Made by a program: the position numbers and the translations under genes. The notes beneath the pieces are model-generated. The model did no database searches. It was not told the DNA's origin and worked only from the letters and a program-made list of their open reading frames with translations. Shown in pieces: positions 15,549-39,426 of a DNA stretch of 64,000 nt (position 1 is its first letter; every line of letters starts with the position of its first letter). Source of the DNA: Chloroflexota bacterium (lineage in GTDB: Bacteria > Chloroflexota > Anaerolineae > UBA1429); assembly GCA_034722245.1 (NCBI GenBank), contig JAYENT010000026.1, forward strand, positions 461-64,460, given 5' to 3'.

Positions 15549-16415
15549 CTAGGCGTAGAGAACGACCGCTGCAGTTAGCGCCCAAAGCACAAGGGTTGCC
15601 AGCATGGGTTTATCGTGCAGGATGATGTCCTCAGGGGCCCCGCCCAGATGTTTCTCGTGGATCAGGTACAGATAACGAAAAATGCCATAGACGACAAAGG
15701 GTATGCTCAGCATCATGGCGTGGTTCTCGGGCAGGTTGGGCGCCGAAAAGGTGTAGAAGGAATAGGCCACCAAAGTAGCGGAAGTTACAATGGAGGTCAT
15801 GTTATCTAGAAGGGCCTGGCTGTATTCCTGTAAGCTGGATCGATGATTGATGGCCTGGTCGGCTAGGAGGTTTAGTTCATGTCGGCGCTTATTGAGGGAG
15901 ATGAACAGGGCGAGCAGCGTAGTGCAGACATAGAGCCAGGGGGAGAAGCGGGTTACATCTATCACCGTTGTCCCCGCCCAAACACGAAGAACAAAGCCTG
16001 CCGAAACCGTCATCACGTCGATGATTACGATATTCTTCAAGACAAAGCTGTAAAGCGCCATTAGGGTCACATAGATGATTACAACGATCCCAAATAGGGG
16101 GCGGAGCCAAAAGGCGGTGGGGATCGCGATCAGCAGCAACAGCAGCATGGCTCCCTTGGCCGTAAGCGGGTTGAGCGCTCCCGAAGCGAGGGGGCGGTTT
16201 TTTTTCACTGGATGTGAGCGATCCTTCTCGATGTCCACCAGGTCGTTCAGCAAGTATATGGCGCTAGAGGCCAAACAGAAAAGCAGAAAAGCGAGGATGG
16301 TACGAAACAGGGCTTGTATTCGAAAAAATTTGGCGTCGAAAAAGATTCCCGCAAAAATAAAGACGTTCTTGGCCCACTGTTTGGGGCGCATGGTTCTTAG
16401 CAGACTCTTGGTCAT
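15549..16415 (-). CDS. UbiA-family prenyltransferase, decaprenyl-phosphate phosphoribosyltransferase (DPPR synthase, Rv3806c-like)
   Basis: LRTMRPKQWAKNVFIFAGIFF...SSAIYLLNDLVDIEKDRSHPVKKNRPLASGAL (NDxxDxxxD motif)...NKRRHELNL...GAPEDIILHDKPMLATLVLWAL aligns block-for-block with mycobacterial UbiA Rv3806c as I recall it; start at ATG 16415 (ORF-track extension to 16514 unlikely). Confidence 0.75.
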   Translation of the reverse strand: MTKSLLRTMRPKQWAKNVFIFAGIFFDAKFFRIQALFRTILAFLLFCLASSAIYLLNDLVDIEKDRSHPVKKNRPLASGALNPLTAKGAMLLLLLIAIPTAFWLRPLFGIVVIIYVTLMALYSFVLKNIVIIDVMTVSAGFVLRVWAGTTVIDVTRFSPWLYVCTTLLALFISLNKRRHELNLLADQAINHRSSLQEYSQALLDNMTSIVTSATLVAYSFYTFSAPNLPENHAMMLSIPFVVYGIFRYLYLIHEKHLGGAPEDIILHDKPMLATLVLWALTAAVVLYA

Positions 16416-16535
16416 GGTTACAATTTCCTCTCTCTGGACTCTTGAGAAGCATATCAGAAACGCGTGTATCGTCAAGACGCCTTTGGTGTTGGAATAGTGT
16501 GGTATGGAATACACTGGATTTGCTGTATCGCCTCT

Positions 16536-17337: not shown

Positions 17338-18480
17338 TTGAGGAGACGGAATACCGTGCCGTCGTGGTTTGATTCCCCCAGAAAGCGATATCGCATTGTT
17401 CTAGTTGTCGCCGTAAGCGCTCTTATTGTAGGCTTATTTTTGGCTGCCTGGACGGCTCTCCTTCCTTTCTTTGCAGGTATGATATTGGCCTATTTGTTAA
17501 TACCCGTCGTCAACTTTTTGGACCAGCATGCTCCTCGGGTCTTGCAGCGCAAGAACATATCCCGCCCGCTGGCTATCGTCATAGTATATATCGTGGGTAT
17601 CGGATTTGTTGTGGGGGTCGTAGCCTACTTTGTGCCCGTTATCAGTCAACAGATGAGGGCTTTTGGCAAGGCCGCTCCCTATTACTTTCGGCAGATTCAG
17701 GAACTTTTGCGCTACGATGTGGTCGAATTGCTTGATAGCCTGCCGCCCGCGGTTCGCACGTGGTTGGAGGCCAGTATAGCCAATCTTATGAACACATTGA
17801 CTAATGCCCTTCAAAGAGGTCTTGAGGCTACCATAAGGACGGTTTCTCGGACGGTCGGTTTTCTGTTGGGCGTTTTGATGGTGCCATTTTGGCTTTTTTA
17901 TGTCCTAAATGATGAGAACGAGATACGGAAGGGTTTTTATCGTCTGATTCCGGACGTGGCGCGGGCCGATGCCCGCTGTATCGTAAGGATCATCGATGAT
18001 CTGCTGAGCGCCTATATCCGTGGACAGCTCCTGTTGGCTTTGATCGTGGGCGTCGCGTCCACTGTTGCTCTTCTCCTTTTGGGCGTGAATCTGGCCGTGT
18101 TATTGGGGACCATTGCGGGTATTTTGGATCTCATTCCCATCGTCGGCCCCTGGATTGGAGGGGTGCCCGCTGTGCTCGTGGCTTTGATAGGAAAGCCGAT
18201 TCGGGCCCTTTGGGTGGCGCTTGCCTTCCTGGCTATCCAGCAGTTGCAGGGCTCCCTTTTAGTACCCCATATATCGGGACATGCAGTGCGCTTTCATCCC
18301 GCGACGGTTATGATCGTCGTGGTAGTGGGCGCTGAGGTGGCTGGACTTTGGGGATTGCTATTGTGCGTTCCGGTGGCTGCGATCATCCGCGATGTGTTTC
18401 ATTATCTTTATCTCCGTACCACGGAAAAGGGCGCCACGCCTGAGATGGCCCTTGAGTATCTGTGGTCGCGCCGAGTATAA
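17338..18480 (+). CDS. AI-2E family transporter (PerM/UPF0118)
   Basis: 8-TM protein with ILDLIPIVGPWIGGVPAVLVALI signature region of the AI-2E family. Confidence 0.8.
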   Translation: MRRRNTVPSWFDSPRKRYRIVLVVAVSALIVGLFLAAWTALLPFFAGMILAYLLIPVVNFLDQHAPRVLQRKNISRPLAIVIVYIVGIGFVVGVVAYFVPVISQQMRAFGKAAPYYFRQIQELLRYDVVELLDSLPPAVRTWLEASIANLMNTLTNALQRGLEATIRTVSRTVGFLLGVLMVPFWLFYVLNDENEIRKGFYRLIPDVARADARCIVRIIDDLLSAYIRGQLLLALIVGVASTVALLLLGVNLAVLLGTIAGILDLIPIVGPWIGGVPAVLVALIGKPIRALWVALAFLAIQQLQGSLLVPHISGHAVRFHPATVMIVVVVGAEVAGLWGLLLCVPVAAIIRDVFHYLYLRTTEKGATPEMALEYLWSRRV

Positions 18481-18505
18481 GCAGCGCGCTTATCTGGAAG
18501 GCGGA

Positions 18506-20380
18506 ATGAGACGAGATATTTGCAAGAGGCTACATAGGCCTTTGCTTCTGCTCATATTGGGGACGGCACTAGCCTTGCGAGTTTATGGCATCGCGTGGGA
18601 CGGTGGATACCTCTTTCACCCTGATGAGCGCCAGATCATGTTTGTCGTGGACGCTCTGTCCTTCCCCTGGCCGCCGGATTGGTCCGTCCTTCTCTCTCCA
18701 GAAAGTCCCTGGAATCCCCATTTCTTTGCTTACGGGTCGTTTCCCATCTATCTCTTGCGCATTGCTACCGGTATCGTAGCACAGTTCAAGGGGGATTTTA
18801 GGGTTTTGCGGCAGGGATACCTATTGGGGCGTGCCTTGTCGGCCCTATTCGACGTGGGAACGGTGTATCTCACCTATCGTCTGGGGAGAAAGTTGTATGG
18901 GAAAGCGGTGGGCTTGCTGTCGGGGGGCCTTCTCGCTTGCGCTGTCTTGCATATCCAGCTCTCTCATTTTTACACCGTTGACACCCTTCTCGTCTTCTTT
19001 GTGGTCTGGACCGTGTCACTGTGTGTCGACTTGTCTCGGCTTCCGTCGTGGAGTATTGCGCTTCCCCTTGGCTCTGTCTACGGCCTTGCGCTGGCCACCA
19101 AAGTGAGCGCTGCCCCTCTGATGGTGCCCATTTCCCTGGCCTGGGTTTTTGTGGCGCTGAGACACTCAGAGAATGTGGAGGGTGAGGTTTGGCGCGGGCG
19201 CGGCCGGTGGTTCAAAGCGCTAGGAGGCCTTGTGCTGACGAGCGTGATCGCCCTGGTTGTGTTCGTATTCTGCGAGCCTTATGCCGTCCTCGACATTAGG
19301 AGCTTTCTTGTTGATATTATGGAGGAAGGGTATATGGCGCGTGTGGGGGCAGGCATCCCTTACACGAAGCAGTATATCGGGACGCGCGCCTATGTCTATC
19401 CCCTTCGGCAGACGGTGGTTTGGGCTGTGGGAGTGCCACTCGGGATAGCGGGATTCGGGGGTGCCTTGGCAGTGCTGGGCAAGACGGTGAAGGAGATTGC
19501 TAAAGGTCAATGGGCCTGTGCAGCAGAGGGCTTTTTGCCCCTTTCGTGGGGCTTGGTCTATTTTGGCATTGTCGGTTCTTTCCATACCAAATTTCTTCGC
19601 TATATGCTGCCCATCATCCCTTTTCTCTGCATGTGGGCGGCATGGCTCCTGGTTAGCGTCCTGCGCGTGCCAGGTATCCGCCGGCGCATTCGTAACGCGG
19701 TCGGGGTTGGGGTCTTTATCTTGGTGTTGGTGCCCACCGTTCTTTATGCTTTGGCCTTCATGAACGTCTACAGGGAGACGCATCCCTGGATTCAGGAAAC
19801 GGCGTGGCTGTGTCGAAACGTCCCTCCGGGGAGTCAGATTATGGTGGAGCACTGGGATGATCCCTTGCCTCTTGTCCAGGGGCAGGGAGATCTCGATTGC
19901 CACGGAGATTACAGGATAAGCGTCTTCCCCGCCTACCATGTGGATGACGAAGAGAAGTTGGCCACATTGTTATATCGGTTGGAGACGAGCGATTACATTG
20001 TCCTTTCCACTAATCGACTCTATAATACCATTCCCCGCCTGCCAGATCGTTATCCGCTTACGAGTCGATACTATGAACTGCTTTTGGGGGAGGAACTGGG
20101 CTATGAGCTTGTTCACTACGTGGCCGTCTATCCGCGTCTGTTCGGTGCGAACCTGATGAATGACACTTTTTCGGATCCCGATCTACCTAAGCCACACCTG
20201 TTAGCACAGCAGGAGACGGCACGTTGTAGCCTGAATCTTGGGCGGGCGGATGAGAGCTTTACCGTGTATGATCATCCCAAACCCTTGATATTCAAGAATA
20301 CGGGCCACCTGTCGCGGGAGGCGTTGCTGGCCCAGTTTGGGGATATTGTGGAAGAGTTCTCCGAAGACGCTGGGGAGTAG
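18506..20380 (+). CDS. Large polytopic membrane protein, GT-C-like glycosyltransferase candidate (HPDE loop); paralog of the N-terminal module of the 2482-aa protein
   Basis: MRRDICKRLHRPLLLLILGTALALRVYGIAWDGGYLFHPDERQIMFVVDAL...; C-terminal soluble part YRISVFPAYHVDDEEKLATLLYRLETSDYIVLSTNRLYNTIPRLPDRYPLTSRYYELL...FTVYDHPKPLIF matches giant-protein residues about 500-650; ATG 18506 just after the AI-2E gene stop. Confidence 0.6.
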   Translation: MRRDICKRLHRPLLLLILGTALALRVYGIAWDGGYLFHPDERQIMFVVDALSFPWPPDWSVLLSPESPWNPHFFAYGSFPIYLLRIATGIVAQFKGDFRVLRQGYLLGRALSALFDVGTVYLTYRLGRKLYGKAVGLLSGGLLACAVLHIQLSHFYTVDTLLVFFVVWTVSLCVDLSRLPSWSIALPLGSVYGLALATKVSAAPLMVPISLAWVFVALRHSENVEGEVWRGRGRWFKALGGLVLTSVIALVVFVFCEPYAVLDIRSFLVDIMEEGYMARVGAGIPYTKQYIGTRAYVYPLRQTVVWAVGVPLGIAGFGGALAVLGKTVKEIAKGQWACAAEGFLPLSWGLVYFGIVGSFHTKFLRYMLPIIPFLCMWAAWLLVSVLRVPGIRRRIRNAVGVGVFILVLVPTVLYALAFMNVYRETHPWIQETAWLCRNVPPGSQIMVEHWDDPLPLVQGQGDLDCHGDYRISVFPAYHVDDEEKLATLLYRLETSDYIVLSTNRLYNTIPRLPDRYPLTSRYYELLLGEELGYELVHYVAVYPRLFGANLMNDTFSDPDLPKPHLLAQQETARCSLNLGRADESFTVYDHPKPLIFKNTGHLSREALLAQFGDIVEEFSEDAGE

Positions 20381-20457: not shown

Positions 20458-21471
20458 ATGAGATTGCATGAATTCCTGAAGAGGCGAGCCCGACTCCTGG
20501 TCGGAATCGTGGTCAGTCTGATCTGTTTCTATTTCGCCCTGCGTATTGTGGATCTGGCCAAGGTCTGGGAAACCTATCGTGGGGCCAACTATTGGTATCT
20601 CTTGCCCGCGTTGGGCATGTTGATAGTTATCAGTTGGGCGCGGGCTCGCCGCTGGCGCCTGTTAATGTACCCCAACGATCAGGTGCCTCTGGAGAGGCTT
20701 TTTTCCATCGTCAACATTGGCTATCTTTTTAACAATATACTGCCTGCCAAGGCGGGGGAGCTTGTGCGCGCCTATCTTGCGGGGCGTGTGTTGCCCGGGG
20801 GCGTGCCCCAAACGTTGTCCACACTTCTTGTGGAACGTTTGCTCGACGTGCTCATGGTGGTGGTTCTCCTGGTTGCCCTTTTTCCCTTTGTAACACTCCC
20901 ATTGTGGATCATGAGGGCGGGTCTGTTGTTTGGGGGGATAGCGGTCGGTGGAGCAGTGTTCCTTGTCCTGCTCGCCAGGCTTGGTGATCGCGGACTGGAG
21001 AAGCTCTGGGGGTTCTTGGCGAGGCTTCCCCTGGTTGGTCATCCACGGGTCAAGGAAGCCCTGCGCAACGTGTTGAAAGGACTGCGCGTGCTGAGCGTGG
21101 GCAAGTTTCTGCCCCGTATTATATTATGGTCGCTGTCCATCTGGCTGGGATATGGAATATTCAACTATCTCATCATGGCTGCTTTCAGGATGACGTACCT
21201 GCCCCTGCTTTCCGCGTTCGTTGTGCTCTGCGCTACGGGCTTTAGCATGATGGTCCCCTCCTCCCCCGGAGCCTTCGGTCCCTTTGAGGCCGCCGTAGTC
21301 CTGGCCCTGTCCCTGTATGGCGTGGCAGAGAGCGCCGCTTTCGGCTATGGGTTTGGCCTACACGCCTTCACAAATATCTCCCTTATCGTGCTTGGGCTGT
21401 GGGGCTTGCGTCAGGAGAGTGTTAGCTTCTCTGCGGTTCGAGAAAAGGCGTTGGAGCAAAAGGAGACGTAG
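20458..21471 (+). CDS. Flippase-like domain protein (UPF0104 / LPG-synthase TM-domain family)
   Basis: ANYWYLLPALGMLIVISWARARRWRLLMYP...IVNIGYLFNNILPAKAGELVRAYL matches the lPaR.GE..R hallmark of TIGR00374/PF03706; 8 predicted TM segments. Confidence 0.7.
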   Translation: MRLHEFLKRRARLLVGIVVSLICFYFALRIVDLAKVWETYRGANYWYLLPALGMLIVISWARARRWRLLMYPNDQVPLERLFSIVNIGYLFNNILPAKAGELVRAYLAGRVLPGGVPQTLSTLLVERLLDVLMVVVLLVALFPFVTLPLWIMRAGLLFGGIAVGGAVFLVLLARLGDRGLEKLWGFLARLPLVGHPRVKEALRNVLKGLRVLSVGKFLPRIILWSLSIWLGYGIFNYLIMAAFRMTYLPLLSAFVVLCATGFSMMVPSSPGAFGPFEAAVVLALSLYGVAESAAFGYGFGLHAFTNISLIVLGLWGLRQESVSFSAVREKALEQKET

Positions 21472-21609: not shown

Positions 21610-23622
21610 GTGCGGGAGGTGGAGTGTGACAAAGCGGTGAGTAAGCAACAGAAGCGTGCTAATCTTTGGTTGCTGGGCCTTTCCCTTGTATTGGCTGTGA
21701 CAGGGCAATACTATTTGGCCAATAAGCGCCAGTTCATGTGGGATGGGATCTTACTTTACGCTCTGGCCATGGTCCTCTTTGCTTGGGTCAGCGCGCGTAT
21801 CGAGAGCGGTGGACGTGAAAAAGGCCAAAAAGGCTTTCCCGGCCTGTGGCGGGGTATCTGGCGAGCGCTGAATCACAGTGTGCTTCGTTTGGCTTTGTTC
21901 CTCTCTGGCATTGCTTTAGTTATGTTTGTGAGCTTTGCCGCTAGCTCTCGTTCCGGAAGCAGGCCCTTTTACGACCTTCTCGCCTTGTGGGGCGTGGGTA
22001 TTCTTACGACTGGTGGAGCCTGTATCCCCTGGCAGGATATGACATTCCACCCCCAAGAATGGTGGAAACGCACAGTCGAGCAAGGTCCCGAGGCGTTGTT
22101 GATCCTAGTTCTTGCCTTGGCCACGTTTCTCACGCGAGTCGTTAATCTTGAGAATATCCCTTTTGTGCTAGATGGGGACGAGGCCGCCATGGGATTGGAG
22201 GCCGTGGCTGTCATTGAGGGAAGAAGGGTTAATCCCTTTGTGACCGGCTGGCTTTCCCATCCCACGCTTTACTTCTTTTTACAATCCCTCTTTTTGCGGC
22301 TCTTTGGCATTTCCATTGCCGCCCTGCGTTTTTCCTCTGCCTTTATTTCACCTTTTATCGTCATCCTCCTTTACTTTTTCACTCGACGCTTGTATGGACG
22401 GTGGGTGGCCATCTTGAGTGCCACGTTTTTTGCCGCCTATCACTATCCCCTGCACTTTGGGCGCATTGCCCTGAACAATATCTGGGACCCCTTTTTCGCT
22501 CTGGGGGCCATCTATTTTTTGACGGTGGGGCTAGAGGAACGGCAGTTGGCTTCAGTGTTGGTCGGCGGTGTGCTGACAGGGATGGCTATCTACTTTTACA
22601 TGGGCTCGCGATTGCTGCCCATCATATTGGTGCTCTATCTCCTTTACTGGGCGTTGACGGAGACGAACTTTTTGTGGGAAAATGCGGTCTACCTCTTCCT
22701 CTTTGGGCTGATGGCTTTTCTAGTGGCGCTCCCCCTGCTAAACTTTTTTCGCACCCATCCAGAAGATTTGGTGGCTCGTTGGGAATGGGTGGGGGTTTTT
22801 TCCTCGGATTGGGCAAAAGGGGAAATGCAGAAGACGGGCAAGACAGTTTGGGGGCTTATGCCAAATCAGTTGCTCAAGTCAGTGCTAGCCTTCAACTATT
22901 TCTCCGATCCCACCTTTTTCTATCATCCCAATACTCCTCTTTTGCACTTTGGTAGTTCGATCTTTTTTGTCGTGGGCTTGACCTATTCCCTCAGGCGGTG
23001 GCGGGAGAGGAGGTACTTTTTACTGCTGCTGTGGTTCTTTTTAGTTATCCTCTTTGGAGGTGTACTGCTCGAGAACCCTCCATCGAGCGCACGGTTTGTA
23101 CTTTCCATTCCTCCTGTTGTGCTTTTTGTGGTTTTTGGGGTATTCAAGGTTTCGTCGTATATTCAGAATAGTGTTAAGGCCCTTCCCAAGGTCGCTATGA
23201 TCTTGTCCCTGGTACTGATTCTGTTCTTGAGTTATCATAGTCTGTACTTTTACTTCTGCGATTACTCGCCCCAGCATCTGTATTCCTCGTATGGCAATAC
23301 TGAAGTTGCAACTGCAATTGCCCAGTATTTGAACTTGTTGGATGCAGACTATCGCTGGTATTTTTTTGGCCCCCCTCGGATCTACCATGATTTCCCTGTG
23401 ATCTCTTTTTTAGCACCCGAGGCGAAGGGAATGGATGTGGAGGAGTCTGTTTCCGGCAGAGTAGATTTTGTGGATCCCGTCTACGACGCGGTGTTCGTAT
23501 TCTTGCCTGAACGCCGGTCAGAGTTTGAGACGGTTCGTCGCCGCTATCCAGCTGGCGCTTTTCGCGAATTCACTAATGGAGAAGGGCGACTTCTGTTCGT
23601 TTCCTACGAGGTCGATCTGTGA
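21610..23622 (+). CDS. GT-C fold glycosyltransferase, ArnT/PMT (GT39/GT83)-like
   Basis: First periplasmic loop with DGDEA acidic motif, then RRLYGRWVAILSATFFAAYHYPLHFGRIALNNIWDPFFALGAIYFL typical of PMT_2 proteins; long hydrophobic protein with a C-terminal soluble region. Confidence 0.6.
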   Translation: MREVECDKAVSKQQKRANLWLLGLSLVLAVTGQYYLANKRQFMWDGILLYALAMVLFAWVSARIESGGREKGQKGFPGLWRGIWRALNHSVLRLALFLSGIALVMFVSFAASSRSGSRPFYDLLALWGVGILTTGGACIPWQDMTFHPQEWWKRTVEQGPEALLILVLALATFLTRVVNLENIPFVLDGDEAAMGLEAVAVIEGRRVNPFVTGWLSHPTLYFFLQSLFLRLFGISIAALRFSSAFISPFIVILLYFFTRRLYGRWVAILSATFFAAYHYPLHFGRIALNNIWDPFFALGAIYFLTVGLEERQLASVLVGGVLTGMAIYFYMGSRLLPIILVLYLLYWALTETNFLWENAVYLFLFGLMAFLVALPLLNFFRTHPEDLVARWEWVGVFSSDWAKGEMQKTGKTVWGLMPNQLLKSVLAFNYFSDPTFFYHPNTPLLHFGSSIFFVVGLTYSLRRWRERRYFLLLLWFFLVILFGGVLLENPPSSARFVLSIPPVVLFVVFGVFKVSSYIQNSVKALPKVAMILSLVLILFLSYHSLYFYFCDYSPQHLYSSYGNTEVATAIAQYLNLLDADYRWYFFGPPRIYHDFPVISFLAPEAKGMDVEESVSGRVDFVDPVYDAVFVFLPERRSEFETVRRRYPAGAFREFTNGEGRLLFVSYEVDL

Positions 23623-23911: not shown

Positions 23912-26900
23912 ATGGCTCCTATGACAGGAGAGGATAAGTTCGTGACGTGGCAAGATGCGTCGCACGCTGTAAAGACAGTGTGGTCTCGACTTGGCAACCT
24001 GTCCTCCGACCGCCGTATGATGCTCAACTTGATGATAGTGATTCTTTTGATTGCAGGCGCGTTGCGTTTTACGGGGATAGATTGGGACGAGAATCAGCAC
24101 CTTCATCCCGACGAGCGCTTCTTGACCATGGTCGAGGACAGATTGCGATGGCCCAGTTCCTTCAAAGAGTATCTGGACTCCTCTGTGAACCCCCTCAGCC
24201 CCTACAATCAGGGTCACGACTACTATACCTATGGTTTGCTCCCCGTGGTTGTGACCAAGTTCATTGGTGAGATCGTGGGCGAGACGGGTTATGATAGCAT
24301 CTATCTCGTGGGGCGGGCGCTGAACGGCGTGCTTGACCTGTTTTCCATCGTGTTGATCTTTATCATGGGCAAGCGTCTCTATGACGCCCGTGTAGGGCTT
24401 TTGGGGGCCTTGTTTCTCGCTTTCAGCGTGCTTAACATTCAGAGCGCTCACTATTTCACCGTAGATACGTGGGTCACCTTTTTTGTAACCTTGGCCCTTT
24501 TCTATGCAATTCGCGTGGCCCAGGGGGAGGGATGGGGGAGTGTTCTAGCCATGGCTGTGGCTTTCGGCCTGGCCACGGCTTCCAAGATCAGCGTTCTCCC
24601 CTTTTTGCTTGTCATGGGTTTGGCCTACACGTTGAGGATCTGGAGACGATGGCAGGCTCACAGAGGTGGGGACTCCTCGCGTTTGATCCATCTGAGAAAG
24701 CAGTGGGGACGGTTTAATATCTTGCTTCGAGTTGAACCGGATGACGAGTGTGAGCCGGTGACGGATGGCGAGCGCCTGTTTTTCGAAATCCTTCGGGGGA
24801 CGCTTTCTTTCTTGGTGGCATTGGTCGTAGCCGCCCTTGTCTTCCGCGTGGCGCAACCTCACGCCTTCACGGGGCCCGGGCTGTTCAATTTCAAGCTCAA
24901 TCCCACATGGAAAGACGACATGAGTCATATCAGCAAGCTGACGAGCGGAGAGATCACTTGGCCCCCTAGTTACCAATGGACGGGCCGGACGCCGGTCCTT
25001 TTCATGCTCAAGAATATGGTATTTTGGGGATTGGGGTTGCCGTTGGGCATCGCGGCATGGGTCAGCTGGGCGTTTATAGGCTGGGAGATGTACAAGAAGG
25101 AGAAGCTGACCCATCTCCTCCCTTGGATGTGGATGACCTTTATCTTCCTCTATCACAGCACCCAGCACGTCAAGACCATGCGTTACCTGCTTCCCATCTA
25201 TCCCACGGCGGCCATGGTGGCCGCCTATGGTCTGATCAAGCTGTGGGATGGGGCCAGGGCATGGAGGGTGCATTATGGTCCGGAGAGGCGTCGGATACGC
25301 TGGGCGGTCGGCGTCCTGATTCTCGTCGTGGTGCTGGGTACGGCCTTTTGGGCCGTCGCCTTTACCAGCATCTATACGCGGCCGGTGACCCGCGTGGCGG
25401 CCTCGCGCTGGATGTACCGCAATCTTCCCCGGGGCGCCTCGGTATCCTATGAGGTGTGGGATGATCCTTTGCCTCTGAATATAGACGGACGTCTGGCGAG
25501 TTCCTACTTTGATCAGGTAAAAATGGATCTCTATGCGGAGGATACACCTGAAAAGCGGGAAAAGCTCTACGACTGGATAGAGAGAGCGGACTATATCGTT
25601 CTTTCGAGCAACCGCCTTTATAAGTCGATTCCTCGTCTTCCCATGCGCTATCCCATGACCACGCGGTACTATGAGGCCCTTTTCTCTGGGGAGCTTGGTT
25701 TTGAGCGTACAGCCACCTTTACCTCACGGCCAAAGCTGTTCGGAATTGAGATCGTCGACGACAATGCGGAGGAGGCCTTTACCGTATACGATCATCCCAA
25801 GGTGATCATCTTTAGGAAGCGCGCCGACTTTTCCATGGTCAGGGTGCGAAGGCTCTTTGAGGAGTATTCCCTTGATCGCATTGTGCGCATGAAACCCACG
25901 CAGGTGACGTCTGCGCCTAATGCTTTGATGCTCAGCGAAGAGGAATGGGCCGTACAACGCGCTGGCGGGACCTGGTCGACGATCTTTTCCCGGAACAGCC
26001 TGTCGAACAAGTTCCCGACGGTAACATGGCTTTTGGCCCTCTTTTATGTGGGATTTGCCGCCTTCCCCTTGGCCTTTGTGGCTTTTTGGCGCATGCGCGA
26101 TCGAGGGTATCTGCTCTCCAAAACCGTGGGCTTGTTAGTTATGAGCTACCTTGCCTGGCTCTTGCCCAGTTTGAAGGTGCTGCCTTATAGCCGAGGGCTC
26201 ATCGCTGGCGTGCTGTTGGGAGTGAGCGCCCTCTCTGCTGTGGTGGGATGGGTGCAAAGGCGCCCTCTACTGGACTTTGTGCGGCGACGCTGGCGTCTCC
26301 TCATAGTCGGTGAACTGCTGTTTCTGGCCTTCTTTTTCCTTTTCTGGCTTATACGCTTTCTCAACCCCGATCTCTGGCATCCGGTCATGGGCGGAGAGAA
26401 GCCCATGGATATGGCCTATCTCAACGCCATCATCAAGAGTACCCACTTTCCACCCTATGATCCCTGGTTCGCCGGCGGCTATATCAACTACTACTACTTT
26501 GGCTGGGTCGTGGCGGCCACGCTGATCAAGCTGACGGCCATCGTCCCCTCGGTGGCCTACAACCTGGCTATTCCCACGTTCTTTGCTCTCATGGCCATGG
26601 GCTCTACGTCCGTTGTCTTTAACCTGATACCCGCCGGAGAGGACGAGGATGGCTGGTTTCCCAGGGCGTTGGGTTATGGGCTCGTGGGCGCTTTGTTGGT
26701 GGCTGTGGCGGGCAACCTGGGCGAATTGCAACTCCTGTGGAATGGCTTCAAGGAACTGGGCAGTAGGGTTTCCTTTGAGAGCACCATTCCCGGGCTTGTG
26801 ACTCTGGTGCAGGTGGTTCGTGGGCTCTGGGCTTGGGTCGCGCAAGGCGAAAGGTTGCCCTTTCGCAGCGAGTGGTGGTATTGGAACGCCAGTCGCATCA

Positions 26901-29900
26901 TGAAGCACGGGGAGATCAACGAATTTCCTTTCTTTAGCTTTTTGTACGCCGACCTGCACGCCCATCTGACGGCCATGCCCTTTGCCATTTGCGCCTTGGC
27001 CCTGGCCAGCAACTTTGTCGTTGAGCCCGTGCGGTGCCTGTTCGGCCCGGCTGACGATGAGGAAGAAGGGGATAAGAGCGAGGGGACGCACGCCGAGGAT
27101 GTAGAGGGAATCCCTGTAGAAACGCGCGCACCTTTCTTGCCGGGCGTGGTACGCTCTGTGCTGCACTTCTTGCAGGGCCTGTCGTCGTGCATCCACTGGC
27201 CTATGATCGCTTCCCTGACCCTGCTCGCGCTGATCCTTGGGGAACTGTGGTGCAACAACTCTTGGGATTTCCCCACCTATGCTGGCGTGTCCGTGGTGGC
27301 CTTGGCCATAGGTTCGTATGCTGAGGCTGACAGGATCAACAAGAAGGTGGTGGCGCACTTCGCTCTTCGCGTCGCCTGCGTGCTGGCACTGAGCATGCTT
27401 TTCTTCCTGCCCTACCACGCCAACTATGGCCTGGCCTATTCCAGCGTGGATCTGTGGAAGGGGGAGCGTACGTCCATCGGCTCTTATCTTATCATTCATG
27501 GGACATTTCTTTTTATACTCGCCTCGTATCTTTTGGTGCTCCTTTTCGACAGGAGGCGCCGGAATGGAATCGTGCGTGCAATACGGCTGTTTCTTCAAGC
27601 CTGGGAGCGGCGAAGGCGTGCGCTGCATCTTTACGACCTCCTCGTGCGTTGCCCAAAGCTGGGCTACGAGCTGGGATGGCTGGGATTGGTTGTCTTGGGG
27701 ATCGTACTGCTTATATTCTTCCTAAAGCAGGCGTGGATCCTGTTGCTGGCGGCGCCTATACTCGCCTTGGCCCTGAGTGTCGTCCTCTTTACCCGAGTGC
27801 GGGCGGAGCGGCGTTTCCAGGCTGCCCTTGTGGGGATCGGACTGCTGTTGACCTTGGCTGTGGAGTATATCGTGCTAAAGGGCGACATTGGCCGTATGAA
27901 CACTGTGTTCAAGTTCTCCTTACAGGTCTGGATCATGTGGGGGGTGGTGGGGGGCGCAGCGTTGGCTTATCTGATCCCCCGCCATTGGGCCTGGCCGTCG
28001 CGCGTGCGTTCCGTATGGCGCAAAATGCTCATCTTTCTTCTCATTGGCGTTTCCCTCTATCCTCTGTGTGGTACCTATGGAAAGGTGAGAGATCGCTGGA
28101 ACCCCGATCTGCCACCGGGATTGGACGGCATGCGCTTTATGACGGGGGCACACTACCGGGATAATAATCGCGATTTGGCTCTGGAATATGATTATCGTGC
28201 CATCCGATGGATGCAGGAGCATATCAAGGGTTCGCCCGTCATCGCCGAGGCCAACACCCCCCTTTACCGCTGGGGGAGCCGCGTGTCCGTCTATACGGGG
28301 CTGCCGACCATCGTGGGTTGGGACTGGCATCAGAAGCAGCAGCGCGCTGCGGTCGGTAGTCAGGTGGTGGACTGGCGACTGGAGGATTTGCGGCTGCTCT
28401 ACAATACGCCCGATCCCGTGATGGCCGCTAACATTCTTGAGTGCTACCAGGTGGGCTACATCTATGTAGGCGAATTGGAGAAGGCCTATTACGACACGCA
28501 AGGTCTGGCCAAGTTCGGACGCATGGTTGGGTCCACGTTGGAGGTCGCTTATAGGCAGGGACCGGTGACCATCTATCGCGTCAAGGGATCGGGCGCTGGA
28601 TTGGTATCCTCAGATCCTGGAGGAGAAAGTCTCTGGAACACCGCGAAACGCTGGTTTGCCAAGCGCTGGTTGCCGGGTGTGGTGAGGGCCGAGGAGCCCC
28701 AGAAGCGTCCTCTTGGCGGGCTGCAGGCGATGGTGGGAGAGCCCTCGCTGATGTTGGACAAACCCGTTGATCAGTTGCCGGTGGTCGATGATCGAGGCTG
28801 GAATGGTCTGGCTGCGAACAGGACGATCTTTGCCCTGTTCTCGTGGTGGGTCGTGTTGCAGCTCCTTGGTTTGATCGCTCTCCCCCTGGTGGGGTATGCC
28901 TTTTCCCCTCTGCCGGACGGGGGGTATTATCTGAGCAAAGGGATCGGGCTGTTGCTCGTCAGCTATCTTGTGTGGCTTGGAACCAGCCTGCACGTGGTTG
29001 CCAACCGCCCTCATGTGGCCTGGGCCGCTTTGCTGTCGGCGGGAGGATGCTCTTTTTTTCTGTGGTGGCGCCACCGCCGTCGTCTGCGCAGGGCGTGGCG
29101 CCGACAACGGAGATTGATTCTGGTGGAGGAGGGCCTATTTAGCATCGCTTTTCTGCTCTTCGTCGGCCTGCGTCTCCTCAATCCGGATCTTTGGCAGCCC
29201 TGGTTCGGCGGGGAAAAGATGATGGAGATAGCTTTCCTAAACGCCATCTGTAAATCCGCCCACATGCCGCCGTATGATCCCTATTTCGCTGACGGGTACA
29301 TCAACTACTACTATTATGGGCAATTCATCGTCGCCACGTTGATCAAGCTCACGGGGGTGTTTCCTCGGGTGGCTTTCAATCTGGCCGTGCCCACCTTCTT
29401 TGGGCTGACCGTCTCCCATGTCTTTGGCGTCTCCTATGGTCTCGTAGCTTTGGGTGAGGAAGGGGTGGAAGAGACTGGAAGAGCAGAAGACGACGCTGGA
29501 ACTGCTGGCATTGCTCCTCGTGCCAGTCCCATCTCCTCCAGGGGGCTGTGGGCAGGGATAGGGGCAGTGGTGCTGGTGGCCGTCATGGGCAACCTCTCTG
29601 GCATACTCCAGGTGCTGGAGTGGCTTGCGAGGGCGGGCGGGGCCTCCTTTCCGGAGGGTCACGTCGCCTGGGCGGATATCCCGTACATTATTCCGGGGCT
29701 GGTGCACACGATACGTCAGGGGATCCCATTGCATTTCGAATACTGGTACTATGGCACGCGCATCATCCCCCACACCATCAACGAGTTTCCCTTTTTTACC
29801 TTTCTCTTTGCCGATCTGCATCCTCATCTGATGGGCATTCCCTTCACTATACTTGTCGTGGGGCTGGCTGCCTCTTTGCTGTGGAGCAAAAGGCGTCCTT

Positions 29901-38600: not shown

Positions 38601-38759
38601 GCCTTCGACAGCCAGGGTGAGCTCTTGCGTGTGTGGGGCCAGAAGGGCGGGGCTCTCTCTTCCATGAACCTACCCACGGGTGTTGCTGTGGACCCGTCGG
38701 GCCGCCTGTTGATCAGCGACTCGGAGAACGGTCGCCTGCTGGTCTTTGAGGAGCACTGA
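35679..38759 (+). CDS. Fusion protein: N-terminal GT-C-like polytopic membrane domain (about 730 aa) plus C-terminal six-bladed NHL-repeat beta-propeller
   Basis: N-terminus ...YSHDESIHAWESWKLITGQGYSHDPTYHGPFLYHFTAFIF... with many TM segments; C-terminus has six repeats such as NVYVADTHNHRIQVFD, DIYIADTWNHRIQVFD, NLYVTDTGNKRVIKYD, DLYVADTWNQRIQVFD, NVYATDPEGYRVLAFD, RLLISDSENGRLLVFE (NHL consensus). Confidence 0.7.
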   Translation: MSEKKEIAFLDRPIIGDRIAWWKVIYALLILFVVFTRLWALAPRGYSHDESIHAWESWKLITGQGYSHDPTYHGPFLYHFTAFIFGLFGHNDYTARLSPALFGIALAVLPLLLKKWLGKKGVPAATFLIAISPVMMHRSRFLRHDVYVAVFNLLLFISSLRYLDQRKTKDLYLVAAATSLGFCAKETTFITYFIFGTFWALLFLSQWLRERTRPWRELPVFDLIIVMGTLILPLASPFLIRVLGGDPLDYTQQGILFSGAIFLVVLGISAAIGFWWDWRRWLVCAGIFYGIFVPLFTTMFTNGRGFATGTVGQLGYWLSQQGVRRGDQPPYYYLVLMPMYEFLPLLGAIGGGIYFFSKRSQDEEAVEDAPTGIPFVPMLLYWSVLAFVIYSWAGEKMPWLTMHLALPLQLLAGWAIGRLFDADWGELREKGALWLLLLIPLFIYVILRLLNLNPSAGTTRQELSETMAWLTSLLVGLGLVVAISRILYRLSGGQRWRIGLVSLFIILSMLTVRFAWMASFVNADLPTEFLVYAQGTPDVALVAKEIEEMSRRLTGGLHMKVAYDDDSSWPFVWYLRKFDNAQFYGQEPAGPFDAEVVLVGPPNESAVKPLLGNDYYRRQYRLIWWPNQDWYMSPELKSIRQGMKEKRIAGKLSDLLLYLKTMLKKIWRVVRDKSARQNLWDVFFYREYEASLTSWPHVHKFALYVRRDVAQQLWDYGPEVLTAAEPLPGDEYVEKWEQIMATDAFGSSGSGPGQLNRPKGIGVDEDGNVYVADTHNHRIQVFDGDGQFLRQWGAEGNQSGQFKEPWGVTVGPEGDIYIADTWNHRIQVFDVRGQLKRVWGTFGEVKDPMGSGDLLYGPRDLVVDAEGNLYVTDTGNKRVIKYDAEGNMIKAVGGAGSEEGQMQEPVGLALSPEGDLYVADTWNQRIQVFDKDLDFLRSWPVYAWEGMSVLNKPYLAVDAEGNVYATDPEGYRVLAFDSQGELLRVWGQKGGALSSMNLPTGVAVDPSGRLLISDSENGRLLVFEEH

Positions 38760-38772
38760 CGGGGAAGAAGCC

Positions 38773-39426
38773 ATGATGCTGAACGTCGACGTGTTTCTCT
38801 TCGATTTCGATGGCACCCTGATCGAGCCCACTATCGATTTTGATTTGATGCACCGGAAGGTGCTCAAGATAGTGCGCGATTTTGGTGTGGCAGATCGTTC
38901 GCTGAGGCAGTTGCATACCCTGGAGACCGTAGAGACGGTCGAGGCGCGGTTGCGGGACGACCATGGTGCGCGCGAAGAATTTCTGAAACGGGTACATGCT
39001 TCTATCCTCGATCTGGAACTGGAGGCAGCGGAACATGCCCATGCCTATCCGGGCGTCCCCGAGATGCTGGACGAACTGGCCACCAGGGGATTTGGGGTAG
39101 GCATCGTGACGCGCAACTCTCGTGCTGCCGTGATGCGCATCCTGCGGCGATTCCCGCTCCACTATGACGTGCTCCTCACCCGGGATGACGTGGCCCATGT
39201 CAAGCCGGACCCTCGTCACCTATTGAGGGCTTTGGAACACTTTTCTGAGGGGCGACGGCGCGCCGCCATGTGCGGGGACCATCCCATGGATGTGGTCGTG
39301 GGCAAGCGTATCGGCGCCCTGACAGTGGGCGTTCTACAGCCCGGCATGTCGGAGGAGCGCTTTGCAGGAGTGGACCCCGATCTCGTGGTCTCGCACCCGC
39401 CAGAGTTGTTGGAGTATGTGGGTTGA
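38773..39426 (+). CDS. HAD-superfamily hydrolase (phosphatase)
   Basis: DVFLFDFDGTLIEP motif I (DxDG); GVGIVTRNSR...; K...GDHPMDVVVGKRIG motifs III/IV; ATG 38773 is 14 nt after the upstream stop. Confidence 0.75.
   Translation: MMLNVDVFLFDFDGTLIEPTIDFDLMHRKVLKIVRDFGVADRSLRQLHTLETVETVEARLRDDHGAREEFLKRVHASILDLELEAAEHAHAYPGVPEMLDELATRGFGVGIVTRNSRAAVMRILRRFPLHYDVLLTRDDVAHVKPDPRHLLRALEHFSEGRRRAAMCGDHPMDVVVGKRIGALTVGVLQPGMSEERFAGVDPDLVVSHPPELLEYVG

What the first reader, a model, noticed from the sequence alone, without database searches (positions are those of the whole stretch)
15549..16415. DPPR-synthase (Rv3806c-type UbiA) homolog 2 kb upstream of the GT-C array points to a polyprenyl-phospho-pentose donor
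The minus-strand UbiA protein aligns with the mycobacterial decaprenyl-phosphate 5-phosphoribosyltransferase as I recall it. The shared blocks are RP(K/R)QW(A/V)KN, YL(L/V)ND(L/V)xD(I/V)ExD(K/R)xHP, (N/G)KR(R/Y)xEL(N/H)L and G(A/E)PEDI. In mycobacteria this enzyme makes the lipid-linked pentose donor used exclusively by GT-C arabinosyltransferases (Emb/Aft). The enzyme is adjacent to a phosphatase that dephosphorylates DPPR. Here the UbiA gene sits next to a GT-C-like array that ends with a HAD phosphatase and a NudF-type Nudix hydrolase. NudF is linked to ADP-ribose and ribose-5-P metabolism. This suggests, by inference only, that the membrane proteins use a polyprenyl-phospho-ribose or -arabinose donor. 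No DprE1/DprE2 epimerase is present in the window.
Basis: partly seen in the sequence, partly recalled or inferred. Interest (0 to 1): 0.55.

Follow-up and report, generated by a model that had tools for sequence, protein, structure and literature searches.

The report
Polyprenyl-phosphate phosphoribosyltransferase gene in an Anaerolineae genome
The gene is a genuine relative of the mycobacterial enzyme that loads phosphoribose from PRPP onto a lipid carrier, already labelled so in public databases; it probably supplies a lipid-linked ribose-type sugar to membrane glycosyltransferases, but its tie to the neighbouring gene array is only moderately supported.

Summary
**Observation: confirmed.** Window 15549-16415 (-) encodes a 288-aa UbiA-fold protein.
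- It passes NCBI's curated DPPR-synthase models: NF008977 scores 276 bits (cut-off 234).
- It matches M. tuberculosis Rv3806c (PDB 8J8J) over its full length, E = 5e-38. The predicted fold agrees (TM 0.86).
- It keeps 10 of the 12 structure-defined PRPP/Mg2+ contacts.
- The identical protein is already named "decaprenyl-phosphate phosphoribosyltransferase" in NCBI.

**Interpretation: partly supported.**
- Relatives of the neighbouring GT-C and flippase-like genes lie within 10 kb of the ortholog in 15 of 42 Anaerolineae loci with enough flank, in three arrangements.
- The commonest neighbours are instead tlyA, the ribosomal operon, or a tight mevalonate-kinase/isopentenyl-phosphate-kinase operon.
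- The closest homologs found in plasmid records (haloarchaea, about 41% identity) sit in compact clusters with a PHP phosphoesterase, an LPG_synthase_TM protein, an SDR epimerase and GT-C enzymes. This supports a synthase/flippase/GT-C module.
- The HAD link is unsupported. It lies 22 kb away and shares only motif I with known phosphoribose phosphatases.
- The Nudix link is unsupported. It travels with the CCA-enzyme gene.
- No DprE1/DprE2 was found, so ribofuranose is more likely than arabinose.

This is a new member of the pentofuranose glycosylation systems described by Kelly et al. (2024).

The parts
15549..16415 (-). Polyprenyl-phosphate 5-phosphoribosyltransferase (DPPRS/PPPRS, Rv3806c-type UbiA), 288 aa
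   Evidence: NF008977 scores 276.4 bits (cut-off 234). PDB 8j8j matches at E = 4.7e-38. The AF2 model has pLDDT 83.5 and its best PDB match is 8j8j, TM 0.86. R10, K16, Y54, N57, D61, K71, R74, Y122 and K127 are invariant in 120 homologs.
16416..16463 (.). 48-bp divergent intergenic region shared with tlyA. Promoter-like hexamers on both strands overlap it.
   Evidence: the sites are not above the shuffle expectation. The tlyA-UbiA divergent pairing is seen in 48 of 67 related loci.
18392..20380 (+). GT-C glycosyltransferase, PMT_2 type (GTC1). Candidate user of the lipid-linked pentose.
   Evidence: Pfam PMT_2 1.7e-9 and PMT 3.9e-6. It is 31% identical to the N-terminal 655 aa of the giant protein and shares the HPDER motif. 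Orthologs lie within 10 kb of UbiA in 10 loci. The link to UbiA is inferred.
20458..21471 (+). LPG_synthase_TM / flippase-like membrane protein. Candidate flippase for the polyprenyl-P-sugar.
   Evidence: PF03706 1.8e-47 and TIGR00374 flippase-like domain. The same family is adjacent to DPPRS homologs in three haloarchaeal plasmids and lies in the same cluster in Streptomyces. The function is inferred.
21610..23622 (+). GT-C glycosyltransferase, PMT_2 type (GTC2). Candidate user of the lipid-linked pentose.
   Evidence: Pfam PMT_2 1.5e-12. It co-occurs with the LPG_synthase_TM gene near UbiA in related loci.
23912..31360 (+). 2482-aa membrane protein: a GTC1-like N-terminal module followed by Chlor_Arch_YYY (DUF2298) repeats. 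Only a possible member of the pathway.
   Evidence: DUF2298 737 bits. TIGR03662 1026 bits in 3 stretches. N-terminus homologous to GTC1, E = 2e-73.
31345..33747 (+). Single-domain Chlor_Arch_YYY (DUF2298) membrane protein. Possible member.
   Evidence: TIGR03662 562 bits.
33843..35657 (+). TIGR03663/Agl23-like GT-C-type membrane protein (below cut-off). Possible member.
   Evidence: TIGR03663 101 bits against a cut-off of 126. PMT_2 5.9e-5.
35679..38759 (+). TIGR03663/Agl23-family GT-C-type protein with a C-terminal NHL beta-propeller. Possible member.
   Evidence: TIGR03663 288.8 bits against a cut-off of 126. NHL repeats 1.9e-53. The core array is conserved down to 40% identity in 80 metagenome loci.
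38746..39426 (+). Generic HAD-IA hydrolase overlapping the stop of the previous gene by 14 bp. Weak candidate for the 5'-phosphatase.
   Evidence: It falls below all equivalog cut-offs. It shares only motif I with DPPRS-linked HAD proteins. It lies downstream of the GT-C-NHL gene in 15 of 80 loci.
39582..40211 (+). ADP-ribose-pyrophosphatase-type Nudix hydrolase. Probably unrelated to the pathway.
   Evidence: TIGR00052 158 bits. It stays next to the CCA-enzyme gene, also where the HAD is absent (L110).

Best explanation
The gene encodes a nine-helix UbiA-fold membrane enzyme of the Rv3806c/PPPRS family.

**Proposed pathway**
1. At the cytoplasmic face the enzyme transfers 5-phosphoribose from PRPP to a polyprenyl phosphate. 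Homology and active-site conservation are shown here. The activity is inferred.
2. A still unidentified phosphatase removes the 5'-phosphate.
3. The polyprenyl-P-ribofuranose is flipped outward. The LPG_synthase_TM protein at 20458-21471 is the best candidate flippase.
4. Extracytoplasmic GT-C enzymes use it as donor. The PMT_2-type genes at 18392-20380 and 21610-23622 that flank the flippase-like gene are the best candidates. The YYY and TIGR03663 genes downstream are weaker ones.

No epimerase is nearby, so the transferred sugar is predicted to be ribofuranose rather than arabinofuranose.

The gene looks like a core, housekeeping gene of the class, not an accessory serotype module. It is found across Anaerolineae-type MAGs, sits beside the ribosomal operon, and in other lineages is fused into an operon with mevalonate kinase and isopentenyl-phosphate kinase.
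For: **Enzyme identity**
- Curated DPPRS models are passed. All four top NCBIfam hits are DPPRS/PPPRS-type, and the next family scores only 52 bits.
- The full-length match to 8j8j has E = 4.7e-38.
- The model (pLDDT 83.5) fits 8j8j best, TM 0.86, against 0.72 for AfUbiA.

**Active site, Mtb numbering (residue roles from PMC10994848)**
- The Mg2+ ligands N73 and D77 are invariant in 120 Anaerolineae homologs.
- So are the pyrophosphate contacts R22, K87, R90 and K143.
- So are Y138 and the 5'-phosphate contacts K28 and Y70.
- The paper states that the phosphoribose contacts are not shared with ordinary UbiA prenyltransferases.

**Known logic**
- PPPRS + phosphatase + flippase + GT-C is an established pathway (PMC11127046).

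**Gene context**
- GT-C/LPG_synthase_TM orthologs lie within 10 kb in 15 of 42 loci, in three arrangements (Pfam-annotated examples).
- Haloarchaeal homologs (about 41% identity) sit in DPPRS-PHP-LPG_synthase_TM clusters flanked by an SDR epimerase and GT-C genes.
- Streptomyces has SDR-UbiA-GT2-EEP-GT2-LPG-synthase-domain. Legionella has DPPRS-GT39.
- No GT2-type polyprenyl-P-hexose synthase is in the window array or recurs near it in 80 loci. The UbiA enzyme is therefore the only donor synthase in the vicinity.
- The UbiA and mevalonate kinase genes overlap or lie at most about 100 bp apart in 12 loci (kinase identities).
Against: - No biochemical data exist for any Chloroflexota member.
- Two Rv3806c contacts differ: Q135 (ribose O3) is Met in 110 of 121 sequences, and K208 is Ser or Ala.
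- UbiA is divergently transcribed and separated from the GT-C genes by tlyA and an AI-2E transporter gene.
- 27 of 42 adequately long loci have no GT-C/flippase-like gene within 10 kb. There the neighbours are housekeeping genes such as POR, AFOR, Lon and an integrase.
- None of 80 loci centred on the GT-C-NHL gene has a UbiA within 10 kb.
- The window-like arrangement could be inherited synteny.
- No phosphatase of a type known to partner with DPPRS (PAP2, PRP-type HAD, PHP) lies next to the gene.
- TIGR03663/Agl23 relatives in Haloarcula are linked to hexose-P-dolichol, not to pentose (PMC11182771).
Confidence: 0.6

Rival explanations
1. The enzyme has the same phosphoribosyltransferase activity, but its closeness to the GT-C array is inherited gene order without functional meaning. 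Its product would be used by partners encoded elsewhere, or would serve another role tied to isoprenoid metabolism.
For: - The most frequent neighbours are tlyA (48 of 67 loci), the S9/L13 ribosomal genes, or the mevalonate kinase/isopentenyl-phosphate kinase operon.
- Many loci have unrelated neighbours.
- The YYY/TIGR03663 core array occurs in 80 loci without a UbiA within 10 kb.
- The gene is divergently transcribed from the array.
Against: - Array orthologs recur near UbiA in three different arrangements, including a same-strand YYY-GTC3-GTC4NHL...UbiA order in L030, L040 and L071.
- The same protein families cluster tightly with DPPRS homologs in haloarchaea, Streptomyces and Legionella.
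Confidence: 0.3
2. A mycobacterial-style DPA pathway. The polyprenyl-P-ribose is epimerised to polyprenyl-P-arabinofuranose by DprE1/DprE2 homologs encoded elsewhere in the genome, and the GT-C enzymes are arabinosyltransferases.
For: - DPPRS homologs do pair with an FAD oxidoreductase and an SDR (DprE1/E2-like) in some lineages, for example the Flammeovirgaceae plasmid.
- Araf systems with DprE1/E2 are reported by Kelly et al..
- The rest of the source genome could not be searched.
Against: - No DprE1/E2-like gene is in the 64-kb window.
- tblastn with the Flammeovirgaceae DprE1-/DprE2-like proteins found nothing real in the window or in 165 related loci.
- The one nearby FAD protein (L029) is GlcD: 68 bits on the DprE1 model against a cut-off of 500.
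- The GT-C genes are of PMT_2/DUF2298 type. No Emb/Aft-type family appears among their Pfam matches.
- Where an epimerase is linked in relatives, it is a GalE-like SDR.
Confidence: 0.12
3. A conventional UbiA prenyltransferase that attaches a prenyl chain to an aromatic or glycerol-type acceptor. This is what JGI's automatic name '4-hydroxybenzoate polyprenyltransferase' for several homologs suggests.
For: - JGI names several homologs this way.
- The protein has a generic Pfam UbiA hit.
- The operon link to mevalonate-pathway kinases in relatives would also suit a prenyltransferase.
Against: - The 4-HB, heme-O, DGGGP and homogentisate models score only 22-27 bits, against cut-offs of 180-350.
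- The PRPP-specific contacts K28 and Y70 and the K/R cluster are invariant.
- The fold match to 8j8j is clearly better than to AfUbiA, ApUbiA or DGGGP synthase.
Confidence: 0.04

Closest known systems
M. tuberculosis Rv3806c (UbiA), decaprenyl-phosphate 5-phosphoribosyltransferase, PDB 8J8J/8J8K
   Same: - Full-length homology (E = 4.7e-38) and the same fold (TM 0.86).
- Same NDxxDxxxD motif, K/R pyrophosphate cluster, 5'-phosphate contacts K28 and Y70, and KRxxEL motif.
   Different: - Sequence identity is only about 26% in the structural alignment.
- Q135 is Met and K208 is Ser.
- There is no adjacent PAP2 phosphatase (Rv3807c type), no DprE1/E2 nearby, and no Emb/Aft-type GT-C.
- The lipid acceptor is unknown.
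- The gene sits beside the ribosomal operon and tlyA, not in an arabinan locus.
Three-component pentofuranose glycosylation systems (Citrobacter youngae ORF15 PPPRS-PRP, ORF14 MATE flippase, ORF12 GT136), Kelly et al. 2024, PMC11127046
   Same: - Same logic: a UbiA-type PPPRS makes polyprenyl-P-Ribf, which is flipped and used by an ArnT-like GT-C.
- The default sugar is ribofuranose when no epimerase is present.
   Different: - No PRP domain is fused, and no PRP-like HAD is adjacent.
- The candidate flippase is an LPG_synthase_TM protein, not a MATE.
- The GT-C candidates are of PMT_2/YYY/TIGR03663 types. Similarity to GT136 was not tested.
- The genes are not a compact operon.
- The gene appears core to the class rather than a serotype-diversifying accessory.
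Haloarchaeal plasmid clusters (Haloterrigena sp. KLK7, Halostagnicola larsenii, Natronococcus sp. CG52), uncharacterised
   Same: - These hold the closest homologs found outside Chloroflexota (38-41% identity).
- The same family set is present: DPPRS, LPG_synthase_TM and PMT_2-type GT-C, plus an SDR epimerase as in some Anaerolineae loci.
   Different: - The haloarchaeal cluster is compact (DPPRS-PHP-LPG_synthase_TM in one direction) and includes a PHP phosphoesterase absent from the window.
- The accessory proteins belong to the same families but are not close orthologs.
Haloarcula hispanica Agl22/Agl23 (TIGR03663 family)
   Same: The window's 1026-aa protein scores 289 bits on TIGR03663, the Agl23 family. 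That family handles polyprenyl-phosphate-linked sugars on the outer face.
   Different: Agl23 is linked to hexose-P-dolichol made by a GT2 (Agl22), not to a PRPP-derived pentose. No GT2 is present in the window array.

Membership tests
DPPRS/PPPRS (Rv3806c-type polyprenyl-phosphate 5-phosphoribosyltransferase, EC 2.4.2.45) | Scores above the curated family HMM cut-off and better than other UbiA subfamilies | tested here: met
   NF008977 scores 276.4 against 234 and NF008978 215.7 against 207. The best non-DPPRS-type family scores 51.8 bits.
DPPRS/PPPRS (Rv3806c-type polyprenyl-phosphate 5-phosphoribosyltransferase, EC 2.4.2.45) | UbiA-type helical membrane fold closest to the solved DPPRS structure | tested here: met
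   The AF2 model has pLDDT 83.5 and pTM 0.80. Foldseek ranks 8j8j_A first at TM 0.86, against 0.72 for AfUbiA.
DPPRS/PPPRS (Rv3806c-type polyprenyl-phosphate 5-phosphoribosyltransferase, EC 2.4.2.45) | Mg2+-binding N73/D77 within the NDxxDxxxD motif | tested here: met
   N57, D58, D61 and D65 are invariant in 121 sequences. Residue roles come from PMC10994848 and from mutagenesis in PMC11127046.
DPPRS/PPPRS (Rv3806c-type polyprenyl-phosphate 5-phosphoribosyltransferase, EC 2.4.2.45) | Pyrophosphate-binding K/R cluster (R22, K87, R90, K143) and Y138 | tested here: met
   R10, K71, R74, K127 and Y122 are invariant.
DPPRS/PPPRS (Rv3806c-type polyprenyl-phosphate 5-phosphoribosyltransferase, EC 2.4.2.45) | 5'-phosphate contacts K28 and Y70 (plus Y157, which is Phe in some mycobacteria) | tested here: met
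   K16 and Y54 are invariant. Position 157 is Phe in 112 of 121 sequences.
DPPRS/PPPRS (Rv3806c-type polyprenyl-phosphate 5-phosphoribosyltransferase, EC 2.4.2.45) | Ribose O3 contact Q135, and K208 of the positive cleft | tested here: not met
   Q135 is Met (110 of 121 sequences). K208 is Ser or Ala, while the adjacent R207 is invariant. In Mtb the Q135A mutant keeps about 30% activity.
DPPRS/PPPRS (Rv3806c-type polyprenyl-phosphate 5-phosphoribosyltransferase, EC 2.4.2.45) | PRPP-dependent phosphoribosyl transfer to a polyprenyl phosphate | not testable with these tools
   This needs a membrane assay with PRPP and farnesyl-, undecaprenyl- or decaprenyl-phosphate.
Three-component pentofuranose glycosylation system (Kelly et al. 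2024) | PPPRS gene clustered with a GT-C glycosyltransferase | tested here: inconclusive
   A PMT_2 GT-C lies 2 kb away but is divergent and separated by two genes. The association holds in 15 of 42 related loci. Similarity to GT136 was not tested.
Three-component pentofuranose glycosylation system (Kelly et al. 2024) | Dedicated flippase (MATE, or GtrA/SMR type) in the cluster | tested here: inconclusive
   No GtrA homolog was found, and no MATE or SMR family appears in the Pfam results for the array genes. An LPG_synthase_TM flippase-like gene sits between the two PMT_2 genes. The same family partners DPPRS homologs in haloarchaea and Streptomyces.
Three-component pentofuranose glycosylation system (Kelly et al. 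2024) | Phosphoribose 5'-phosphatase fused or adjacent (HAD-type PRP, PAP2 or PHP) | tested here: not met
   Nothing of this kind lies next to UbiA. The HAD 22 kb away shares only motif I with the Lactococcus HAD-IB and the Mesorhizobium PRP-like protein. No PAP2 hit was found. The only PHP hits in the loci (L065, L027) are not adjacent to UbiA.
Mycobacterial DPA (arabinan donor) pathway | DprE1/DprE2 epimerase pair | tested here: not met
   The pair is absent from the window and from 165 related loci. The rest of the genome could not be searched.
Mycobacterial DPA (arabinan donor) pathway | Emb/Aft-type arabinofuranosyltransferases as the GT-C partners | tested here: not met
   The array proteins hit PMT_2, DUF2298/TIGR03662 and TIGR03663. 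No other GT-C family is reported for them.

The most novel reading that the evidence does not exclude
Anaerolineae, and independently haloarchaea, may use a so far undescribed variant of the lipid-linked pentofuranose pathway.
- A core DPPRS-type synthase would be co-regulated with the mevalonate pathway.
- An LPG_synthase_TM-family protein would act as the polyprenyl-P-pentose flippase.
- PMT_2, Chlor_Arch_YYY and TIGR03663 GT-C enzymes would build a housekeeping ribofuranose-containing (or xylofuranose-containing) envelope glycan.

This would be a Chloroflexota counterpart of the mycobacterial arabinan. It would also give the function-unknown YYY (DUF2298) family its donor substrate.
Probability: 0.25. 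Interest if true: 0.65.

Novelty: new member of a known kind. Interest (0 to 1): 0.4.

Why it matters
- **Envelope chemistry.** If the prediction holds, a very large and mostly uncultured bacterial class carries a core enzyme for lipid-linked ribofuranose. That implies pentofuranose-containing envelope glycans in Chloroflexota, whose envelope chemistry is poorly known.
- **Testable candidates.** It names candidates for the unknown steps: LPG_synthase_TM as flippase, and PMT_2/YYY GT-C enzymes as transferases.
- **Wider reach.** It extends the pathway described by Kelly et al. (2024) to Chloroflexota and haloarchaea.
- **Limits.** The enzyme assignment itself is not new, because NCBI's pipeline already gives it this name. 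The link to the array is circumstantial.

Tried and rejected
1. **HAD as DPPR phosphatase.** NCBIfam shows only generic HAD-IA similarity, all below cut-offs. BLASTP against a Lactococcus HAD-IB encoded next to a DPPRS gene, and against the PRP-like protein upstream of a Mesorhizobium UbiA, aligns only motif I. The HAD follows the GT-C-NHL gene in 15 of 80 loci, mostly close relatives. The idea remains a weak candidate.
2. **Nudix as part of the pathway.** It travels with the CCA-adding enzyme gene, also where the HAD is absent. Rejected.
3. **DprE1/DprE2.**
   - Pfam and NCBIfam scans of the window's larger ORFs (150 aa or more, plus several smaller ones) found none.
   - tblastn with Flammeovirgaceae DprE1-/DprE2-like proteins against the window and 165 loci found none.
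   - The weak FAD hit in L029 is GlcD.
4. **Other known partners.** Searches for PAP2, GtrA and PHP partners in the window and loci found no adjacent homologs.
5. **GT2 synthase.** I looked for a GT2 polyprenyl-P-hexose synthase that would explain the array without UbiA. None is in the window array, and none recurs near it in 80 loci.
6. **Literature.** Searches for DPPRS or DprE1 in Chloroflexi or archaea, and for DUF2298, returned nothing relevant.
7. **RNA and promoters.** The Rfam scan of 12-42 kb found nothing. The promoter and terminator scan was not above shuffle expectation.
8. **Exact-protein look-up.** It gave only one 11-kb Logan contig, so the rest of the source genome could not be examined.
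Full report
**1.

Window 15549-16415 on the minus strand is an ATG-initiated ORF of 288 aa. A longer mechanical ORF reaches a GTG at 16514. The 288-aa form is identical to a protein already in NCBI (P0001, 100% identity, 288 aa), and homologs are about 285-295 aa long.

Family scans:

| Model | Bits | Cut-off |
|---|---|---|
| Pfam UbiA | 76.5 | 34.2 |
| NF008977, DPPR synthase equivalog | 276.4 | 234 |
| NF008978, DPPR synthase equivalog | 215.7 | 207 |
| NF006088, HAD-UbiA fusion type | 173.3 | 351 |
| NF008976, third DPPRS model | 156.5 | 474 |
| Best other family (PRK12884) | 51.8 | 269 |
| 4-hydroxybenzoate prenyltransferase | 27.1 | 275 |
| Heme-O synthase | 26 | 210 |

- Against all PDB sequences, the best match is M. 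tuberculosis Rv3806c (8j8j), E = 4.7e-38, query residues 4-283 against chain residues 16-296.
- An AlphaFold2 model built on 34 homologs (pLDDT 83.5, pTM 0.80) matches 8j8j best (TM 0.86). AfUbiA follows at 0.72, then DGGGP synthase.

**2. The active site is that of a phosphoribosyltransferase**

Gao et al. (PMC10994848) define these contacts in Rv3806c:
- Mg2+ ligands: N73 and D77
- pyrophosphate cluster: R22, K87, R90 and K143, plus Y138
- 5'-phosphate contacts: K28, Y70 and Y157
- ribose O3 contact: Q135
- positive cleft: K208

They state that the phosphoribose contacts are not shared with ordinary UbiA prenyltransferases.

In a MAFFT alignment of 120 Anaerolineae homologs with the Mtb sequence:
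- R22, K28, Y70, N73, D74, D77, D81, K87, R90, Y138, K143, R192, E195 and R207 are invariant.
- Y157 is Phe, as in some mycobacteria.
- Q135 is Met in 110 of 121 sequences.
- K208 is Ser or Ala.

So 10 of 12 contacts are kept, including those specific for PRPP. The two differences concern residues whose loss only lowers activity in Mtb. I therefore rate the enzyme assignment at about 0.85-0.9. The activity itself is inferred.

**3. Source and distribution**

- The exact protein is named [quoted passage not shown] in NCBI. JGI calls several homologs "4-hydroxybenzoate polyprenyltransferase", a generic name that the HMM scores contradict.
- In one genome per GTDB species, 525 of the first 600 pattern matches encode relatives. 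The best 80 all come from Chloroflexota MAGs: Anaerolineae, Anaerolineales, Caldilineae, Thermoflexia, Ardenticatenales and a few labelled Chloroflexia.
- The gene therefore looks like a widespread, probably core, gene of this class.

**4. Gene neighbourhood in the window**

Upstream, on the plus strand, lies the ribosomal-protein, secY, adk, rpoA, L17, truA, L13 and S9 block. The UbiA gene follows on the minus strand. The genes after it are all on the plus strand:

| Coordinates | Gene or family |
|---|---|
| 16464-17315 | tlyA; shares a 48-bp divergent intergenic region with UbiA |
| 17338-18480 | AI-2E transporter |
| 18392-20380 | PMT_2 GT-C (GTC1) |
| 20458-21471 | LPG_synthase_TM flippase-like protein |
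| 21610-23622 | PMT_2 GT-C (GTC2) |
| 23912-31360 | 2482-aa protein: GTC1-like N-terminus (31% identity, E = 2e-73) followed by Chlor_Arch_YYY/DUF2298 repeats |
| 31345-33747 | second YYY protein |
| 33843-35657 | TIGR03663/Agl23-like protein |
| 35679-38759 | TIGR03663/Agl23-like protein with an NHL propeller |
| 38746-39426 | HAD |
| 39582-40211 | Nudix |
| 40276-41655 | CCA-adding enzyme |

No FAD oxidase/SDR pair, PAP2, PHP or GT2 is present anywhere in the window.

**5. Is the neighbourhood conserved?**

I compared 80 Anaerolineae loci with up to 10 kb of flank.

- The most constant neighbour is tlyA, divergent, in 48 of 67 loci with at least 1 kb upstream.
- Downstream lies either the S9/L13 end of the ribosomal block (32 loci by tblastn) or mevalonate kinase and isopentenyl-phosphate kinase.
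  - The kinase arrangement occurs in 14 of 70 loci with at least 1.5 kb downstream.
  - The kinase genes are co-directional with UbiA. They overlap it or lie within about 100 bp in 12 of those loci.
  - TIGR00549 scores 259.8 bits and NF040647 161.7 bits.
- Relatives of the window's GT-C/LPG_synthase_TM genes lie within 10 kb in 15 of 42 loci with at least 8 kb upstream. They occur in three arrangements:
  - window-like
  - a mevalonate-kinase type with LPG_synthase_TM, an SDR epimerase, GT4, a methyltransferase and two PMT_2 genes (Pfam-annotated examples with LPG_synthase_TM, GT4, methyltransferase and PMT_2)
  - a same-strand YYY-GTC3-GTC4NHL...UbiA order in L030, L040 and L071
- The remaining loci have unrelated neighbours: POR, AFOR, Lon and an integrase.
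- In 80 metagenome loci centred on the GT-C-NHL gene, the YYY-YYY-GTC3-GTC4NHL core is conserved down to 40% identity. No UbiA lies within 10 kb, and no GT2 donor synthase recurs.

The linkage is real but partial.

**6. Independent lineages**

tblastn against plasmid records shows that the closest homologs outside Chloroflexota are haloarchaeal, at 38-41% identity.

| Lineage | Genes around the DPPRS homolog |
|---|---|
| Haloterrigena, Halostagnicola, Natronococcus | DPPRS, then PHP phosphoesterase, then LPG_synthase_TM protein; flanked by an SDR epimerase and one or two GT-C genes (PMT_2, Mannosyl_trans4) |
| Flammeovirgaceae | DPPRS, FAD oxidoreductase, SDR (DprE1/E2-like) |
| Lactococcus | 533-aa hypothetical protein, DPPRS, HAD-IB, GtrA |
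| Marivivens | DPPRS, PAP2 |
| Legionella adelaidensis | DPPRS, GT39 |
| Streptomyces | SDR, UbiA, GT2, EEP, GT2, LPG-synthase-domain protein |
| Mesorhizobium | PRP-like protein, UbiA, SDR, 623-aa hypothetical protein |

This is the modular pathway described by Kelly et al. (PMC11127046): a PPPRS, a phosphatase of variable family, an optional epimerase that sets the pentose, a flippase of variable family, and a GT-C.

The repeated pairing with LPG_synthase_TM proteins is the strongest argument here. It suggests that the window's 20458-21471 gene and the two PMT_2 genes flanking it work with the UbiA enzyme.

**7. Parts of the interpretation that fail**

- The HAD is a generic HAD-IA protein with PpaX/Gph-like similarity, all below cut-off.
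  - It aligns with the DPPRS-linked Lactococcus HAD-IB and the Mesorhizobium PRP-like protein only at motif I.
  - It follows the GT-C-NHL gene in 15 of 80 loci, mostly close relatives.
  - Its 14-bp overlap with that gene suggests co-transcription, so it stays a weak candidate.
- The Nudix (TIGR00052, ADP-ribose pyrophosphatase family) stays with the CCA-enzyme gene even without the HAD (L110). It is best seen as unrelated.
- Arabinose is not indicated.
  - tblastn with DprE1-/DprE2-like proteins found nothing in the window or in 165 loci.
  - The only nearby FAD protein is GlcD.
  - Where an epimerase is linked, it is a GalE-like SDR, as in the xylofuranose systems of Kelly et al.

**8. Most likely mechanism**

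1. PRPP and a polyprenyl phosphate give polyprenyl-P-5-phosphoribose, made by the UbiA enzyme.
2. An unidentified phosphatase removes the 5'-phosphate.
3. The LPG_synthase_TM candidate flips the lipid-linked sugar outward.
4. PMT_2-type, and possibly YYY or TIGR03663, GT-C enzymes transfer ribofuranose to an unknown envelope acceptor.

Homology, active-site conservation and partial, multi-lineage gene linkage are shown. Activity, lipid, sugar identity, partners and acceptor are inferred.

The main rival is that the enzyme is as described but the proximity to the array is inherited synteny.

**9. Novelty**

- The enzyme family, its structure and the pathway logic are known.
- The annotation already exists.
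- No paper in the searchable library discusses the Chloroflexota or haloarchaeal members.
- I file the gene as a new member of a known kind.
- There is a moderately interesting, unproven possibility of a variant that uses LPG_synthase_TM flippases and YYY-type GT-C enzymes for a core envelope glycan.

Noticed in passing
L021, L024-L027, L043, L044, L048, L049, L057, L059, L072, L073, L077 (just downstream of the UbiA match): In 14 Anaerolineae loci the DPPRS-type gene is followed co-directionally by mevalonate kinase (TIGR00549, 259.8 bits) and, in 10 of them, by isopentenyl-phosphate kinase (NF040647, 161.7 bits). The UbiA and mevalonate kinase genes often overlap. This is an apparent operon tying the enzyme to the alternative mevalonate pathway.
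   Followed up: partly
window 16416-17315, and 48 of 67 related loci: The tlyA (rRNA 2'-O-methyltransferase) gene is the most conserved neighbour. It is divergently transcribed, with an intergenic distance of about -100 to +50 bp. No functional reason is apparent.
   Followed up: partly
L052, L060, L064, L075, L081: These loci carry tandem duplicates of the DPPRS-type gene. The second copy in L081 scores 221.7 bits on NF008977, just below the cut-off of 234, so it is a diverged paralog.
   Followed up: partly
window 23912-38759; L086-L165: The array of a giant protein (GT-C-like N-terminus plus YYY repeats), a single YYY protein, a TIGR03663-like protein and a TIGR03663-NHL-propeller protein is conserved down to 40% identity in 80 metagenome loci. 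DUF2298/Chlor_Arch_YYY has no known function and almost no literature (2 papers mention it).
   Followed up: partly
L166 (Haloterrigena), L167 (Halostagnicola), L171 (Natronococcus) plasmids: These carry a compact, uncharacterised haloarchaeal cluster: an SDR epimerase and GT-C gene(s) next to DPPRS, a PHP phosphoesterase and an LPG_synthase_TM protein. It looks like a complete lipid-linked pentofuranose system in archaea, with PHP as the likely 5'-phosphatase.
   Followed up: partly
window 35679-38759: The Agl23-family membrane protein carries a C-terminal NHL beta-propeller. The propeller also resembles the scytonemin-cluster protein ScyF (212 bits, below the cut-off of 350). It may be an extracytoplasmic substrate-binding domain.
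   Followed up: no
window 39582-41655; L091, L098, L100, L104, L108-L110: The ADP-ribose-pyrophosphatase-type Nudix gene and the CCA-adding enzyme gene form a conserved adjacent pair, independent of the HAD and the GT-C array.
   Followed up: partly
window 17338-18480: An AI-2E family transporter gene sits between tlyA and the first GT-C gene in the window and in about 15 related loci. Its role is unknown.
   Followed up: no
window 16001-38000: AT skew drops to about -0.2 to -0.3 across the membrane-protein array, while GC skew stays positive over nearly the whole window. This is consistent with T-rich codons for hydrophobic residues on the coding strand.
   Followed up: no
MT837543.1 4928-5749 (phage collection, hit H1): A 6.6-kb unannotated 'Bacteriophage sp.' contig from human faeces encodes a DPPRS-type protein (34% identity, E = 3e-34). 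This agrees with the report by Kelly et al. of a phage-borne pentofuranose system.
   Followed up: no
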